Shown in pieces: positions 52,896-58,800 of a stretch of 64,000 nucleotides of DNA. Position 1 is the first letter of the stretch. Every line of letters starts with the position of its first letter. The stretch comes from Escherichia coli (GTDB taxonomy: Bacteria > Pseudomonadota > Gammaproteobacteria > Enterobacterales > Enterobacteriaceae), in the NCBI RefSeq assembly GCF_022846255.1, contig NZ_AP025682.1. One strand, given 5' to 3'. Made by a program: the position numbers.

Positions 52896-55800
52896 TTAAT
52901 GGCGGAGCAAGGAACATCGCCACAATTGCAACCCGGAGAGACTACCAGATGGGACGCAAGCTTGCTGGCAGTCTCATGAAAGAACAGGGGCTGGTCAGCT
53001 GTCAGCCGTTGACCCTCCGGTACAGGCATGGCAGTCATGAACTTGTAGCTATCCTAAGAACTTGAAGGGCGCTTAGCTGTGACACAGCTAAATCAAGTAT
53101 GGTGACGTGACCTATATCTGGACTGGTAAACGATGGGGATACCCGCTTACGCGAGAGCAATAAGTGGCTGGCCACCATTCTCGATACAAAACTCTGCTGA
53201 ATAGCAGCGATTTTCCCAGCGTGGTGCGTCTTTTGCATTTTACTGGTTCTGAGTTATCAATTATCTGTTCACTAATGACTACTCTAAAAAGTTGTATCAA
53301 TTTAAGTGATATAGGGAGTCTGGAGATTCAGGGGGCCAGCCTAGGAACATTGGTTACATTTTTAGTTTCCAAACATTTTATTGTTCGAACTTCGGAGCAA
53401 TCAGATTATCCAGATTGAATGTCTTCTCCCATTCTTCCTGTGTGAGTAGCTTACGTTCGACAACCACTATCTGATGGAGGGATTTGCCTGTATGGTATGC
53501 TTCGTGCGCCATTTCAGAACACACCTTATATCCCAGATGTGGCTTCAGGAGAGTCACAATACCGCAGGAATGCATTACCATCTCTGCAGTTCGATCGGAA
53601 TTAGCTGTAATGCCATCAATGCATTTAGTTCGGAGTGTGTTACAGGCATTCGTCATCACCTTGAGTGAGGTGAACAGCGCAAAGGTGATGACCGGCTCCA
53701 TAACGTTAAGCTCAAGCTGACCAGCAGATGCCGCCAGCATCACTGTGGTGTCCAGCCCCTGAACCAGGAAGCAAGACTGGTTTGTTACTTCCGGGATAAC
53801 GGGGTTAACCTTACCAGGCATAATGGAAGAACCCGGTTGCAATTGAGGCAGGTTAATTTCAGCCAGGCCGCAACGGGGGCCTGAAGCAAGCAGTCGAATG
53901 TCATTACAAACCTTGGTAAGCTTCACAGAGAGGCTCTTCATGGCCGAACTGAGTGCAACATATGCACCACAGTCGCTTGTGGCAGCGATGAGATCTTCAC
54001 TGTTCCTGAAATTAATGCCTGTGATCTGGGCCAGATATTTCACGGCTAAAGCGGGATAATCCGGGTGAGCGGTAACACAGGTACCAATCGCAGTAGCACC
54101 AAGGTTTACAACCCGCAGGTGTTCCTGTGCATTACGGATGACCCGAATTTCATCATTAATTGTAAAACCCCAGCCATGGAACTCCTGGCCGAGAGTCATT
54201 GGCACTGCATCCTGCAGGTGAGTACGTCCCATCTTGAGCACTGTGCTGAACTCGTCAGCCTTTTTGTAGAATGCTCCTACGAGGTGTTCAACAGCTTCAA
54301 GCAATACATTGCTTCGCAGCAGCAATGCCAGATGTAATGCTGTCGGATATGTATCATTGGTGGACTGACCAAAATTAGCATGGTCGTTTGGCGAAACGCG
54401 TTTGTAATCCCCTTTAACGCTACCAAGTTTTTCTGCAGCAAGATTACAAATCACTTCATTGCAGTTCATATTGGTTGACGTTCCGGCTCCCCCCTGAAGC
54501 CAGTCGGTCACAAACTGTTCCCGGTACTTACCATCAATTAATTGGTCGCAAGCCCAGATTAAAGCATCCGCAACATCAGCAGGAATTGTACCTAACTCCT
54601 TATTAGCCATCGCAGCTGCTTTTTTCACATAACCGAAGGCAATGATGAAGAAAGGCTCCTGACTCATTGGCATTTCAGTGATATGGAAATTATCTTTTCC
54701 ACGAAGTGTCTGAACACCATAATAGCAATCATCCGGAATTTCACGCTCACCAAGGAAATCGCTTTCAATACGAGACATAATATTCTAACTCCATTATTTG
54801 AAAACAATGTGACAATAACAAATTGTTTAACCGGAGCTATGCTCTCGGAATTTGAATTCTTACATCATTGAAATAACATGTGATATCAATCTGTCAGAAT
54901 TCTTCTGACAGTCAGTAACTGAATGCAGATTAACTGCCTGACTAATTATCAAATAGTAACTCTGTAACTACTTCCATAAAGAATGAAAATTATGATTCTA
55001 TCAGACCATCATTGGTGCAATCACAAACCCAAATGTCACTCCTGCAATAACACCACCCAACCCGGGTAGCATAAATGGGTGATTTAATAAATAATTGCCC
55101 ACACGGGTTGTGCCGGTAGTATCAAATTCCATCGCGGCGAGTGATGTTGGATACGTTGGAAGCACGAATACTCCCGTAACGGCAACATAAGATGCAAGAA
55201 TTGCCCAGGTTGGTATGTTGAGTGCTACAGCCAGAGGAATAATTAACGGCGTAGTCGCTCCCTGTGAGTAAAGTAAAGCGCAGGTAAAAAAAAGAACTAA
55301 TGCTAAAAGCATCGGATAAGTTTGTAAAATATCACCAGCGATATCTTTGATCTCAGTTAAATGCGCATCAATAAAGGTGGTACCTAAGGTTACAATACCA
55401 AGAATCACTGCCAGCGAACTCATTCCAGCACGAAATGTGGAGGTCAGAATAATGTCATCAGTAGACATCTTACACAGTATTACCATCAGGCAGGCAGCAG
55501 AGAGCATGCAAATAATAATAATATCGCGCGTTTCCATCGGTTTGCTGATATCAAAACCCGGACGCAATTGGGGGAATGCAGCAAGAATAACAATGGCGAT
55601 CGTCGCCAGCATGAATAATCCGACGGAAAGCGTTGCACCAGGTTTGATGCTGTTATTATTCTCGTATTTTTGCACCAGACCTTTTTGCAGACGTTCAAGA
55701 TATACTTCGTCATCTTGTAATTCACACCCCTGTCGGGAGGCGATAAAAGCAGCAACCATCGCGGCGACAAAAGAGGTGGGAAGGCATACCGACATCACCT

Positions 55801-58800
55801 GAATAAAACTGACGCCATTAACCTCCATAATAGTGAGCATAGCTGCCATTGCGGCACTGATTGGTGAGCCAGAAATTGCAACCTGTGAGGCGACAACTGA
55901 GCCAGCGAGTGTGCGGGAAGGCCGGATACCGGACTCTTTTGCTACTTCAGCAATTACCGGCAGTGTGGAGAAAACAATAAACCCGGTACCGGCCATAATG
56001 GTCATTAACCAAGTGATAATCGGTGCGATTATGTTGATATATTTTGGGTTACGTCGCATGAAATTACTGGCTAAACGTACCAGATAATCCATCCCACCTG
56101 CCGCCTGTAAGGCTGAAGCTGCCACAACTACGGTCATAATAATCAGGATCACATCGACTGGCGGTGATCCCATAGGCAGACCAAATCCCAGAGTCAGGAT
56201 CGCAAGGCCAAGACCGCCGCATAAACCAATGCCGATTCCTCCCTGACGAATACCAAAAAATATTGCGCCAAGTACAACGATAATTTCCAGCCAAACCATG
56301 ATGTTCTCCGTTGTAAATATAATCTTTGTAAAATAACTTTCTGGCTGTGATTTAGAATTATTGAGTTAAATGTTGATCTTTTCCGATACGATTTTCATAC
56401 CATTTTATTCCTGCGCGAACGAGTGAAGCGGTTGAATCAATATAGCGTAAAGGTTGATCTTTAACGGCTTGTGACAGAATAATGGGAATTTCCGTACAAC
56501 CAAGAATCAAGATCTCTGCTCCGCGGGAAAATAAATTTTCAGCCTGCTCTTCCATCAATTTTTGCGCATGTGTAACATTTCCCGCTTTAAGTGAATAAAT
56601 GCTTTTCATCACATTTTTTTGGCCATCTGCATCCGGGGTGATATAGTTAAACCCTAACGATTCAATTCCTTTCTGGTATAATCCCATATACAGCGTGGCA
56701 TCAGTGGCCAGGAGGCCAATTCTAGTTTTACCACAGACGCGAACTTCATCGACCGTAGTATCTATGATACTTAGTATATCAATATGGCAAGCATCTTTTA
56801 GTTCTTTAAACCAATAGTGTGCGGTATTACAGGGAATAACAATACATTCTGCTCCTGCATCTTCCAGTTTATGCATATAGTCACGCATAACGGGTAAAGG
56901 CGAGAGCCCGTTATGCATTAATGCATCGGTACGGTCAGGAATATCCGGGATAGAAGAAATAATTAAAGGTATATGTTCTTGATCTCGTTGTGCTGCTGTA
57001 AAGGTGACAAATTTATTAAATAAGTCGACAGTGGCGGCCGGCCCCATTCCACCGAGCACACCGATTAAACCTTTCACAATACTTACCTCTCAGAAAATCA
57101 ATGCTCATAAACTTAAAAAACCATTTCTCCTTTTTTAACAGTCTCTAAAGGCTATGAGAAATGCAATGATGTACAATGCAATGCAAGACTTGCATGATGT
57201 AGTTTTGCAATATACATGAACCATATACTATTGTTGCATGAAGACCTATCATAATGATGAAAATAAACGCTTTTGGGAGAAGTGTTAAACTGGTTTAGAT
57301 ACAGAAAACGAATGGATTATGCATAAAACGAATAACTTAAATATGCTATCTGCATTCATTACCCCGGTTTTCGGGGGGTATACTAACTAAAATTTGATAA
57401 TACTTGGATAATAGAAATGAAAAATATAGAGACCAAATGGTTATATGATTTCCTGACACTGGAAGCCTGTCGCAATTTCTGTCAGGCAGCAAAAGATCGT
57501 AACCTTTCACAACCAGCATTCAGCAGACGAATAAAAGCGTTAGAGTCAGCTATAGGTGTTGTTTTGTTCGATCGTACAACCTCTCCTTTACAATTAACTG
57601 AAGAGGGTAGGCTTTTTCACTCCCAGACACGCAGTTTAGTGCAACAGCTTGAATGCAATCTGAATGAGTTAGGGGGGGATAATTCATTCAATTTGCCTAA
57701 TATTAAGATTGCAGCTGCGCACTCATTATCCCTCAGCATGCTACCTAAACTTCTGCACTCACTCACCACCTTAGGCGGAGACTTTATCTATCATGTTGAG
57801 GCTATTGATGTCGTCCAGGCCGTAAATACGTTACGAGAAGGGAAGAGTGACTTTATTATTTCATTTCGAGATGAGGAGTTTATGCAATCGCCATTTTGTT
57901 GTATGAAACTGTTTGAATCTGAGTTGTATCCGGTATGTGCTGCTGATCAACAGGGAAAACCGATTTTCGATCTTACCAATTCACAGGCTCCTTTGCTCGA
58001 CTATACTCCAACTTCTTATATGGGCAGACTGGTTAATCGTCATTTGGCAGAACAGGGAGGGATAGCCGGACACACAATATTGGTATCTTCAATGAGTGAA
58101 CTACTAAAAAATATGGCACTCAATGGACTTGGTATTGCCTGGCTCCCTCTCTGGTCAATCGCGGATGAACTGAACACAAAACGACTTGTGTGTCCGTGGC
58201 CTGCTAAATGGGCAGTGCCTATTCAGGCTTATATTTATCGTATGGATACTCGGCTGAACAAAACGGCTGAACACTTTTGGACGATTTTACGAAATAACAT
58301 TAAAGAGAATAGCTAGAAACATCGTGGACAGTTTTTGTTGAGCACGACAAATCCACGTTTTTCTGGGGGTGAAGGGGGGGAATTCGTTAAACTGGATGTC
58401 TTTTGCTTTAATCAGTTCATCTCCTTCAGGATAATTCTGGCCATTGAGATCACTTTGAGAGGTATTTTTTTCTCTTTTCACATAGTAAATAATAACATTG
58501 TTTAATTAATAACAGAAAATATACTAAAATCAATAATTGTAATAATAAATTATTTGTTGTCCCAGATAAGTTAAGTGTCATTAAAATGCTGGACAATCCT
58601 CGCGTAACGGTATTTAATGACTACAGCACGTTCCAGGAAAAGCAGTGGAAGCAAATATTGGTCATTATGTCGAAAACACCGGAAACGTACTCTATATTGT
58701 GTAGTCATTTATTCAAATGACAGCGTATAAACAAATTGATCAGAATCACATTTTTTTGTGAAAATCATTGTCGAGAGGCAACATTTCATAGTAAGTGTAT

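What the first reader, a model, noticed from the sequence alone, without database searches (positions are those of the whole stretch)
53378..58316. Asp/Glu racemase, DcuA-like transporter and aspartase-like lyase operon with a divergent LysR regulator
Core enterobacteria carry aspA-dcuA for L-aspartate fermentation. Here a paralogous module adds an Asp/Glu racemase with both catalytic cysteines, consistent with import of a C4-dicarboxylic amino acid (possibly D-aspartate), racemisation and deamination to fumarate, under a dedicated LysR regulator. It is an accessory module next to IS remnants.
Basis: partly seen in the sequence, partly recalled or inferred. Interest (0 to 1): 0.5.

Follow-up and report, generated by a model that had tools for sequence, protein, structure and literature searches.

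The report
D-aspartate uptake module plus captured aspartase
This E. coli island segment is a variant of an already characterised gene set for importing the mirror-image amino acid D-aspartate and converting it to L-aspartate. Its one unusual feature is a recently duplicated, foreign-type aspartase gene attached behind it, which probably extends the pathway to fumarate and ammonium.

Summary
All four ORFs are present at the stated coordinates. The LysR regulator, racemase and Dcu transporter form an old, conserved cassette. The same arrangement occurs in Citrobacter, Providencia, Edwardsiella, Leminorella and Mannheimia. A second E. coli allele of it is the Shigella SRL-island orf7-orf8-orf9, whose racemase and transporter were shown experimentally (Henriquez 2020) to confer growth on D-aspartate.

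The lyase is not part of the conserved cassette. It is a 1,451-bp duplicate (coding sequence plus a 50-bp leader, no native promoter) of an aspartase found elsewhere on the same island. That gene's closest named relatives are from gut Sutterellaceae, and there it pairs with a different Dcu transporter.

No canonical terminator separates the transporter from the lyase, so co-transcription is plausible but untested. A Campylobacteraceae genome independently links an aspartase, a Dcu transporter and this racemase clade.

Two current RefSeq names for these genes, "cysteate racemase CuyB" and "HypT", do not hold up here.

Verdict: a new variant of a known kind, of modest interest.

The parts
57417..58316 (+). 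LysR-type transcriptional regulator, 299 aa. It is a paralogue of HypT/YjiE and the putative dedicated regulator of the cassette.
   Evidence: ORF. Identity is 56% to K-12 HypT, against 80% to the SRL-type orf7 allele, 75% to Citrobacter, 71% to Providencia and 61% to Mannheimia racemase-linked LysRs. It is divergent from the racemase in 22 of 26 loci from other species. Leu replaces HypT Met123, and the clade has a 3-residue insertion.
57078..57416 (.). Divergent control region of 339 bp. It contains the conserved dyad ATGCAAGACTTGCAT (57181-57195, T-N11-A type), the conserved block TTGCATTTCTC (57156-57166, - strand) and the conserved block TTCGTTTTATGCATAA (57317-57332, - strand).
   Evidence: In an alignment of 11 taxa, these blocks are the only conserved islands in otherwise unalignable sequence, including in Mannheimia. 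The dyad pattern occurs once in the 64-kb window, against 0.14 expected. It is absent from true HypT loci.
56358..57077 (-). PLP-independent aspartate racemase, 239 aa, GTG start with a GAGAGG Shine-Dalgarno sequence. Catalytic residues are Cys83 and Cys194, with Arg49 and Lys164 at the positions that recognise the side-chain carboxylate in P. horikoshii AspR.
   Evidence: It is 88% identical to the SRL-type orf8 allele, which is needed for D-Asp to L-Asp conversion and for growth on D-Asp (PMC6980539). The best solved-structure match is the Salmonella putative aspartate racemase 3S7Z at 252 bits.
55001..56299 (-). Dcu-family (DcuA-like) transporter, 432 aa. It is the putative D-aspartate importer or antiporter.
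   Evidence: NF006927 at 588 bits over its full length. Identity is 48.5% to DcuA, 34% to DcuB, 95% to SRL-type orf9 and 68% to the Mannheimia racemase-linked Dcu. orf9 is required together with orf8 for growth on D-Asp (PMC6980539).
54829..55000 (-). Spacer of 172 bp between the conserved cassette and the duplicated lyase segment. It is homologous neither to other alleles nor to the lyase's native upstream region. It holds two hairpins (54891-54911 and 54831-54848), neither followed by a U-tract.
   Evidence: Homology limits are. No canonical terminator and no promoter-like site lie in the spacer. Canonical terminators do follow dcu in Leminorella, Limnobaculum and Mannheimia.
53378..54828 (-). 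Duplicated segment of 1,451 bp: the aspartate ammonia-lyase coding sequence (53378-54778, 466 aa) plus a 50-bp leader that carries the GGAG ribosome-binding site.
   Evidence: The segment is 99.5-99.8% identical to a second copy that sits in a lyase-Dcu'-ansB' module on the same island. It is 54% identical to AspA, with the GSSIMPGKVNP, QSTND and GRTHLQDAVP motifs conserved. The closest named relatives are Duodenibacillus at 88% and Sutterella at 77-80%.
52030..53142 (.). IS66-family and transposase pseudogene remnants that bound the module on the lyase side.
   Evidence: RefSeq annotation of the identical stretch in strain MS6198, with coordinates converted by adding 38999.
58887..59476 (+). 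IS200/IS605 remnant on the LysR side: the STnc490 RNA element (58887-59010) followed by a frameshifted tnpA (about 59020-59476).
   Evidence: Rfam RF01405 at 122 bits, E = 5e-25.

Best explanation
The segment is an inducible D-aspartate catabolic module built from two parts. Part 1 is window 55001-58316, a conserved cassette. A LysR-type regulator probably binds the conserved ATGCA-N5-TGCAT dyad about 100 bp upstream of the racemase and switches on racemase-dcu (inferred). The Dcu-family carrier takes up D-aspartate, and the two-cysteine racemase converts it to L-aspartate. Both of these steps were shown genetically and by HPLC-MS for the 88%/95%-identical Shigella SRL-island alleles. Part 2 is window 53378-54828, a promoter-less duplicate of a Sutterellaceae-type aspartase gene lying 222 bp downstream of dcu in the same orientation. 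It is most likely transcribed by read-through, and it converts the L-aspartate to fumarate plus ammonium (inferred from homology and anatomy). This would pull the racemase equilibrium forward and give fumarate for respiration or for exchange through the carrier. The addition makes the island copy independent of the separately regulated core aspA.
For: ORFs and families. Not the canonical locus. The cassette LysR<->racemase-Dcu is conserved in 26 loci from Escherichia albertii, Citrobacter, Trabulsiella, Limnobaculum, Leminorella, Edwardsiella and Providencia and in Mannheimia. Experimental function of the orthologue: PMC6980539, reviewed in PMC7545054. The published primers match the second E. 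coli allele exactly, and identities to that allele are. A conserved operator-like dyad is unique in the window. The lyase is a 1,451-bp duplicate that keeps its ribosome-binding site but not its native 865-bp upstream region. There is no canonical terminator or promoter in the spacer, whereas terminators follow dcu in the two-gene versions. The arrangement is kept intact in 221 of the 223 genomes that carry this allele. An independent aspartase-Dcu-racemase-asparaginase array exists in a Campylobacteraceae genome, with a 55%-identical racemase. In the Shigella experiments L-Asp accumulated in the medium, which suggests the step downstream of the racemase can be limiting.
Against: No experiment addresses this allele, the lyase copy or the regulator. 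The lyase is absent next to the cassette in every other species and in the 359 E. coli genomes with the SRL-type allele, so it is dispensable for D-Asp use. The island is full of IS scars, so the juxtaposition could be accidental. The spacer holds two hairpins that might reduce read-through. The genome already has core aspA and a second copy of this same lyase, so the extra copy may be redundant. The lyase scores just below the strict AspA equivalog cut-off, 645.5 against 681.2.
Confidence: 0.65

Rival explanations
1. Only LysR/racemase/Dcu is the functional unit. On this view the lyase is a passenger left beside it by IS-mediated rearrangement of the island. It is neither co-regulated with D-aspartate use nor selected for it.
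For: The lyase is absent from all 26 loci in other species, from Mannheimia and from the SRL-type E. coli allele. A non-homologous 172-bp spacer with hairpins separates it from dcu. IS fragments lie directly next to it. A full second copy with its native partner Dcu' exists about 28 kb away on the same island. The arrangement looks like a single clonal event at about 100% identity.
Against: The retained piece is exactly the coding sequence plus its ribosome-binding site, in the same orientation and directly after dcu. It lacks its own promoter region, and no canonical terminator lies upstream. Both copies remain intact, differing by only 2 amino acids. The same three functions are linked independently in a Campylobacteraceae genome.
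Confidence: 0.25
2. The racemase is a cysteate racemase (CuyB), as recent RefSeq annotation names it. On this view the module handles the sulfonate analogue of aspartate.
For: NCBIfam 'equivalog' NF052483 scores 250 bits against a cut-off of 190. Some RefSeq records name the gene cuyB. BwCuyB was never tested on aspartate, and cysteate is similar in shape to aspartate, so some cross-activity is conceivable.
Against: The model does not discriminate. The SRL-type racemase, which has D-Asp evidence, scores 249 bits. Nineteen of 20 mutually distant family representatives pass the cut-off. The established P. horikoshii aspartate racemase also passes, at 236 bits. No CuyA/DcyD-type PLP lyase lies within about 7 kb in about 30 loci, nor anywhere in the window. 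The partners are a C4-dicarboxylate/aspartate-type carrier and, here, an aspartase. Experimental D-Asp use is shown by the orthologue (PMC6980539).
Confidence: 0.04
3. The main role is protection rather than nutrition. The module would remove toxic D-aspartate, or it would run in reverse to make and export D-aspartate as a signal, with the carrier acting as an exporter.
For: Strains lacking the SRL genes lost optical density in D-Asp medium, and the authors propose detoxification. Racemases are freely reversible. Dcu carriers are exchangers (established knowledge of DcuA/DcuB).
Against: The orthologous genes support growth on D-Asp as the sole carbon source. Adding an aspartase fits catabolism, not D-Asp production. 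Detoxification by uptake and racemisation is the same mechanism as in the best explanation and differs only in the selective benefit.
Confidence: 0.06

Closest known systems
Shigella flexneri SRL pathogenicity-island orf7-orf8-orf9 (LysR, AspR aspartate racemase, DcuA-like transporter); Henriquez et al. 2020, PLoS One, PMC6980539
   Same: The gene order and orientation are the same: LysR divergent from racemase-Dcu. Protein identities are 80%, 88% and 95%. Both are island-borne and flanked by IS elements. The control-region blocks are conserved. The demonstrated function is D-Asp uptake, D-to-L conversion and growth on D-Asp.
   Different: The window carries a distinct allele, about 81% identical in DNA across the cassette and about 86% across racemase-dcu, found in 223 genomes against 359 for the SRL type. 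It has an aspartase gene appended downstream of dcu. The SRL-type allele in E. coli has an IS600 fragment at that position and no lyase. The paper does not mention an aspartase.
Core E. coli aspA-dcuA (L-aspartate ammonia-lyase plus L-aspartate/C4-dicarboxylate carrier)
   Same: The same two protein families are involved, and the overall logic is the same: aspartate in, fumarate and ammonium out. All aspartase catalytic motifs are conserved.
   Different: Identity is only 54% and 48.5%. The gene order is reversed, with the carrier upstream of the lyase. The two genes here have different evolutionary origins. There is a racemase and a LysR regulator in place of the control that, from established knowledge, acts on core aspA (CRP, FNR, DcuSR). 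The core locus is also present in essentially all genomes.
Sutterellaceae aspA-dcu pair (Duodenibacillus, Sutterella), and its E. coli island derivative lyase-Dcu'-ansB'
   Same: This is the source type of the lyase: 88% identical to Duodenibacillus and 80% to Sutterella megalosphaeroides. The island's Dcu' is 82% identical to the Duodenibacillus Dcu. The window's lyase differs from the island's other copy by only 6 nt.
   Different: In the native context the lyase is followed by its own 444-445-aa Dcu, and in Sutterella it is preceded by frdAB-like genes. In the window it follows an unrelated Dcu that is 44% identical to Dcu'. The E. coli gene is 47% GC against 60% in Duodenibacillus, so the direct donor has not been sampled.
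dsdCXA D-serine locus of E. coli (LysR-type DsdC, DsdX transporter, DsdA deaminase); comparison from general knowledge
   Same: The design is the same: a LysR regulator divergent from a transporter plus catabolic enzyme or enzymes for a D-amino acid. It is variably present among E. coli lineages.
   Different: The protein families are unrelated. D-serine is deaminated directly, whereas here the D-form is first racemised and the L-form is then deaminated.

Membership tests
SRL-island-type D-aspartate utilisation module (orf7-orf8-orf9) | Racemase orthologous to orf8 | tested here: met
   88% identity to the allele that the published orf8 primers match with no mismatches. The synteny is the same.
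SRL-island-type D-aspartate utilisation module (orf7-orf8-orf9) | Dcu-family transporter orthologous to orf9, immediately downstream of the racemase | tested here: met
   95% identity, with a 58-bp gap between the two genes.
SRL-island-type D-aspartate utilisation module (orf7-orf8-orf9) | Divergent LysR-type gene orthologous to orf7 | tested here: met
   80% identity. The control-region motifs are conserved.
SRL-island-type D-aspartate utilisation module (orf7-orf8-orf9) | Confers growth on, and D-to-L conversion of, D-aspartate | not testable with these tools
   Shown only for the SRL allele (PMC6980539). This allele needs a growth assay and HPLC.
PLP-independent aspartate racemase (PF01177 / TIGR00035) | Two catalytic cysteines, plus the Arg and Lys that bind the side-chain carboxylate in P. 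horikoshii AspR (Cys82, Cys194, Arg48, Lys164; residue roles recalled from the literature) | tested here: met
   Cys83, Cys194, Arg49 and Lys164. TIGR00035 scores 194 bits against a cut-off of 93.
Aspartate ammonia-lyase (aspartase/fumarase superfamily) | Catalytic SS-loop GSSxMPxKxNP, and the QSTND and T-H/Q motifs that contact the substrate | tested here: met
   GSSIMPGKVNP, QSTND and GRTHLQDAVP align with E. coli AspA (1JSW) and with 6WNG.
Aspartate ammonia-lyase (aspartase/fumarase superfamily) | Score above the curated family cut-offs | tested here: inconclusive
   It passes subfamily NF008909 (681 against 510) but falls just below equivalog TIGR00839 (645.5 against 681.2). It scores far above the fumarase model, 460 bits.
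Canonical aspA-dcuA locus | Near-identity to core aspA and dcuA, with aspA upstream of dcuA | tested here: not met
   54% and 48.5% identity, and reversed order. The core locus is present separately in 5425 of 5426 genomes.
Cysteate racemase CuyB (NF052483) | Score above the model's cut-off | tested here: inconclusive
   250 bits against a cut-off of 190. However, the D-Asp-linked SRL allele, 19 of 20 distant family representatives and P. horikoshii aspartate racemase also pass, so the criterion does not discriminate.
Cysteate racemase CuyB (NF052483) | Genomic association with the D-cysteate sulfo-lyase CuyA (PF00291), as in PMC11193023 | tested here: not met
   tblastn with the CuyA homologue DcyD finds nothing at E <= 1e-5 in about 30 loci (about 7 kb either side) or in the 64-kb window. 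Pfam listings of neighbours show no PF00291.
HypT / YjiE hypochlorite-responsive regulator (NF007488) | Orthology to K-12 HypT: position next to iadA-yjiGH, and identity comparable to true orthologues | tested here: not met
   56% identity, against 83% between K-12 HypT and the C. amalonaticus orthologue that sits next to iadA-Gate-Gate. The window gene is at a different locus. It passes the HMM cut-off, 382 against 301, which explains the RefSeq name.
HypT / YjiE hypochlorite-responsive regulator (NF007488) | The three methionines reported to mediate activation (Met123, Met206, Met230; residue numbers recalled from Drazic et al. 2013, not checked in a paper here) | tested here: inconclusive
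   Met206 and Met230 are invariant in all six sequences. Met123 is Leu in the window protein and in all racemase-linked LysRs, which also carry a 3-residue insertion nearby.

The most novel reading that the evidence does not exclude
E. coli has built a chimeric three-step operon on a genomic island. A promoter-less duplicate of a horizontally acquired, Sutterellaceae-type aspartase was captured behind an enterobacterial D-aspartate uptake and racemase cassette, possibly at the site of its former terminator. One LysR-controlled transcript would then convert external D-aspartate to fumarate plus ammonium. Together with the neighbouring asparaginase, isoaspartyl-peptidase, pepT-dcuC and extra Dcu genes, this would give certain extraintestinal-pathogenic lineages a dedicated aspartate-family respiration and nitrogen island that exploits D-aspartate from the microbiota or the host.
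Probability: 0.4. Interest if true: 0.45.

Novelty: new variant of a known kind. Interest (0 to 1): 0.3.

Why it matters
The core function, D-aspartate uptake and racemisation, is already published, so the module does not open a new field. Three things still have practical value.

1. It is a clear, datable example of operon growth. A foreign aspartase was duplicated within an island and attached, without its promoter, to a pre-existing regulated cassette. This prediction is directly testable by RT-PCR and deletion analysis.

2. About 4% of complete E. coli genomes carry this version and a further 7% carry the SRL-type version. D-aspartate use may therefore be a common strain-variable trait relevant to gut or urinary colonisation.

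3. Two curated "equivalog" models currently spread misleading names for these genes in RefSeq: cysteate racemase CuyB and hypochlorite regulator HypT. Showing that an established aspartate racemase passes the CuyB cut-off is a concrete reason to recalibrate that model.

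Tried and rejected
- **Canonical aspA-dcuA.** Rejected on identity, gene order and the separate universal core locus.
- **Cysteate racemase.** I followed this up because of the NCBIfam hit. It was rejected as the primary function after control scoring, the absence of any CuyA/DcyD gene and the literature. A direct comparison with BwCuyB (UniProt E5Y345) was not possible, because no supplementary text is held and the sequence was not retrievable with these tools.
- **H2S link.** Many carrier genera are H2S producers (Citrobacter freundii group, Edwardsiella, Leminorella, Trabulsiella, Proteus), which suggested a link to sulfite release from cysteate. I dropped the idea because Providencia, Mannheimia and E. 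coli also carry the cassette and no sulfonate gene is linked to it.
- **A private promoter for the lyase.** The two promoter-like hits inside the 50-bp leader would place the transcription start within or after the ribosome-binding site, so they were judged non-functional.
- **A shared operator with HypT.** The dyad is absent from K-12 hypT-iadA and from the C. amalonaticus locus.
- **Other TGCA-N5-TGCA matches in the window.** By coordinate conversion, the one at 22606 falls inside dacD. A third is at 26053, and the one at 53954 lies inside the lyase coding sequence. I took these as chance matches.
- **Structured RNA.** Rfam found nothing structured within the module itself.
- **Literature on the lyase-containing arrangement.** Searches in ST131 and genomic-island papers found nothing.
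- **Structure prediction.** Not run, because sequence-level evidence was sufficient.

Full report
**Observation.**
- Lyase: 53378-54778 (-), 466 aa.
- Dcu-family transporter: 55001-56299 (-), 432 aa.
- Asp/Glu-racemase family protein: 56358-57077 (-), 239 aa, GTG start preceded by GAGAGG.
- LysR-type regulator: 57417-58316 (+), 299 aa, divergent from the racemase.

NCBIfam assigns the proteins to the aspartate ammonia-lyase subfamily (681 bits), the Dcu family (588 bits) and the amino-acid racemase family TIGR00035 (194 bits). It assigns the regulator to the HypT model (382 bits). The racemase has both catalytic cysteines, Cys83 and Cys194. It also has Arg49 and Lys164, at the positions that bind the side-chain carboxylate in the P. 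horikoshii enzyme.

**Not the core locus.** Identities to K-12 proteins are 54% (AspA), 48.5% (DcuA), 34% (DcuB), 31% (YgeA) and 56% (HypT). Core aspA-dcuA is present in 5425 of 5426 complete E. coli genomes. The 5.8-kb segment is present at about 100% identity in only 221 of them.

In strain MS6198, which is identical over the segment, it lies in a mosaic island. The island runs from the cobUST/tRNA-Asn region to CP4-44-like genes. IS66-family and transposase pseudogenes lie on one side of the segment and an IS200/IS605 remnant on the other.

**The conserved unit is LysR/racemase/Dcu, and it is already characterised.** I recovered 26 loci from other species: E. albertii, the Citrobacter freundii group, Trabulsiella, Limnobaculum, Leminorella, Edwardsiella, Providencia and Brenneria. 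In 24 of them the racemase is followed by the same kind of Dcu gene. In 22 it is preceded by the divergent LysR gene. None of them has an aspartase-family gene nearby. Mannheimia has the same triad. Homology between alleles and species covers window 55001-58290 and stops at the dcu stop codon.

E. coli carries two alleles of racemase-dcu: the window's allele in 223 genomes and a roughly 86%-identical one in 359 genomes. The second allele is the Shigella SRL-island orf7-orf8-orf9. All primers published by Henriquez et al. (2020) match it without mismatch apart from their engineered restriction sites.

That paper showed three things (PMC6980539). First, orf8 plus orf9 are necessary and sufficient for growth on D-aspartate as sole carbon source. 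Second, they are necessary and sufficient for depleting D-Asp while L-Asp appears. Third, neither gene alone complements. A review lists the pair as AspR-DcuA. The window's proteins are 88% (racemase), 95% (transporter) and 80% (LysR) identical to that allele.

**Regulation.** The intergenic region (57078-57416) cannot be aligned across genera except for three short blocks kept in all 11 taxa compared, including Mannheimia.
- A T-N11-A dyad, ATGCAAGACTTGCAT (57181-57195).
- TTGCATTTCTC about 20 bp nearer the racemase (57156-57166).
- TTCGTTTTATGCATAA nearer the LysR gene (57317-57332).

The dyad pattern occurs once in the 64-kb window, against 0.14 expected. In Edwardsiella it remains upstream of the racemase even though the regulator gene has moved. 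This layout is typical of LysR-type activators, but binding and the inducer are inferred only.

The regulator is not HypT itself. True HypT orthologues share 83% identity and sit next to iadA-yjiGH. The dyad is absent from those loci. The racemase-linked clade has Leu in place of HypT Met123 and carries a 3-residue insertion.

**The lyase is a recent add-on of foreign type.** Its closest relatives outside E. coli (76-89% identity) are from metagenomes. Among named organisms they are Duodenibacillus and Sutterella, which are gut Sutterellaceae. In those organisms the gene is followed by a 444-445-aa Dcu, and in Sutterella it is preceded by frdAB-like genes.

The same E. coli island carries that pair as lyase-Dcu'-ansB'. 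Dcu' is 82% identical to the Duodenibacillus Dcu, and ansB' is about 96% identical in DNA to core ansB. Nearby are pepT-dcuC, an isoaspartyl peptidase, an argH-like lyase and two more Dcu genes. This module lies beyond the end of the window.

The window's lyase is a 1,451-bp duplicate of that gene. It comprises the coding sequence plus only 50 bp of leader with the ribosome-binding site, out of a native upstream region of about 865 bp. The homology ends at the stop codon. The two copies differ by 6 nt and 2 amino acids in MS6198 and are identical in strain PK8241. At 47% GC against 60% in Duodenibacillus, the gene's direct donor is an unsampled relative.

All aspartase motifs (GSSIMPGKVNP, QSTND, GRTHLQDAVP) are intact. 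The protein passes the aspartase subfamily cut-off but falls just below the strict AspA equivalog cut-off.

**Is the lyase part of the operon?** Several observations favour co-transcription.
- It lies in the same orientation, 222 bp after dcu.
- It has no native promoter region, and no promoter-like site lies in the 172-bp spacer.
- No hairpin with a T-run separates it from dcu. Such terminators do follow dcu directly in Leminorella, Limnobaculum and Mannheimia.
- One spacer hairpin (54831-54848) ends 2 nt before the junction. It might be the stem of a former terminator whose U-tract was replaced, but this is speculation.
- The arrangement is intact in 221 of the 223 genomes that carry this allele.
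- Independently, a Campylobacteraceae genome has aspartase-Dcu-racemase-asparaginase in one array, with a racemase 55% identical to this one. Linking these functions is therefore recurrent.
- In the Shigella experiments L-Asp accumulated outside the cells, which suggests that downstream deamination can be limiting.

Against co-transcription, the lyase is dispensable for D-Asp use in every other carrier. The island is heavily rearranged by IS elements. Two other aspartase genes are present in the same genome.

**The "cysteate racemase" name.** The racemase passes the NCBIfam CuyB equivalog cut-off (250 bits against 190), and newer RefSeq records call it cuyB. The following also pass:
- the SRL-type allele, at 249 bits;
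- 19 of 20 mutually distant representatives of the family;
- the biochemically established P. horikoshii aspartate racemase, at 236 bits.

No CuyA/DcyD-type gene is linked to the racemase in any locus. BwCuyB was never assayed with aspartate, and the two characterised CuyBs share only 50.8% identity with each other. The label therefore carries no substrate information here. Some side activity on cysteate cannot be excluded.

**Verdict.** The module is a variant of a known D-aspartate uptake and racemisation cassette. Its new feature is the captured, promoter-less, Sutterellaceae-type aspartase. That gene probably extends the pathway to fumarate and ammonium under the same control, which remains to be shown. 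Interest is modest.

Noticed in passing
Outside the window; strain MS6198 record NZ_CP015834.1 about 2234450-2252300 (locus L044 18451-36300): The same island carries a dense set of aspartate, asparagine and C4-dicarboxylate genes. These are an argH-like lyase with a Dcu-family gene, another Dcu gene with a GntR regulator, an orphan dcuR, ansB'-Dcu'-lyase (copy 1), pepT-dcuC and an isoaspartyl peptidase/asparaginase. Together with the finding, this looks like an 'aspartate island'.
   Followed up: partly
L040 (Citrobacter amalonaticus-type contig) 4499-10112; K-12 locus L003 2379-5681: A paralogous racemase (54% identical, the type crystallised from Salmonella as 3S7Z) sits tail-to-tail with the true HypT orthologue, next to iadA (isoaspartyl dipeptidase) and yjiG-yjiH and beside a DctPQM transporter. 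K-12 has hypT-iadA-yjiGH but no racemase. The whole HypT-like regulator group is therefore linked to aspartate-related genes, which may bear on the physiological role of HypT.
   Followed up: partly
window 56358-57077 and 57417-58316; RefSeq records: RefSeq names the regulator 'hypochlorite stress regulator HypT' and, in newer records, names the racemase 'cuyB: cysteate racemase'. Both names come from 'equivalog' models whose cut-offs admit non-orthologues. NF052483 even admits P. horikoshii aspartate racemase.
   Followed up: yes
window 57031-57047; PMC6980539 methods: The published single-gene orf8 construct starts at an internal ATG (MGPAAT, Met11 of the ORF called here from a GTG start). 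It therefore lacks the conserved N-terminal GxLGGMGP segment. This could contribute to the failure of single-gene complementation, although the transporter is needed in any case.
   Followed up: no
L046 2144-7027 (Campylobacteraceae MAG GCA_047974135.1): The array aspartase (57% to AspA) - Dcu (60% to DcuA) - racemase (55% to the window's) - asparaginase, with short gaps, is an independent linkage of the same functions.
   Followed up: partly
window 58887-59010 (+): There is a full-length match to the Hfq-binding RNA STnc490 (Rfam RF01405, 122 bits) directly upstream of the degraded IS200/IS605 tnpA. The RNA element of the IS appears intact although the transposase gene is broken.
   Followed up: no
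window 53143-53377, and L039 (strain KH_005) 6001-6164: Homology between the two lyase copies ends exactly at the stop codon, and the 235 bp beyond it are unassigned (possibly an IS end). Strain KH_005 keeps only a 164-bp remnant of the lyase 5' end (95% identical), which stops at the same upstream breakpoint (window 54828).
   Followed up: partly
window about 47790-51834 (-): The neighbouring uncharacterised module comprises a phosphotriesterase-related protein, a DMT transporter, a glutamine-amidotransferase-like protein (49848-50606) and a 404-aa PfkB sugar kinase with an N-terminal DeoR-type helix-turn-helix (50620-51834). KH_005 and PK8241 keep the kinase, amidotransferase-like and DMT genes in the same neighbourhood.
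   Followed up: no
window 59670-64000 (-): A dgoR-K-A-D-plus-MFS (galactonate) operon lies inside the island next to the module. Whether it duplicates the core dgo operon of the same genome was not checked. In strain PK8241 it is truncated by IS elements.
   Followed up: no
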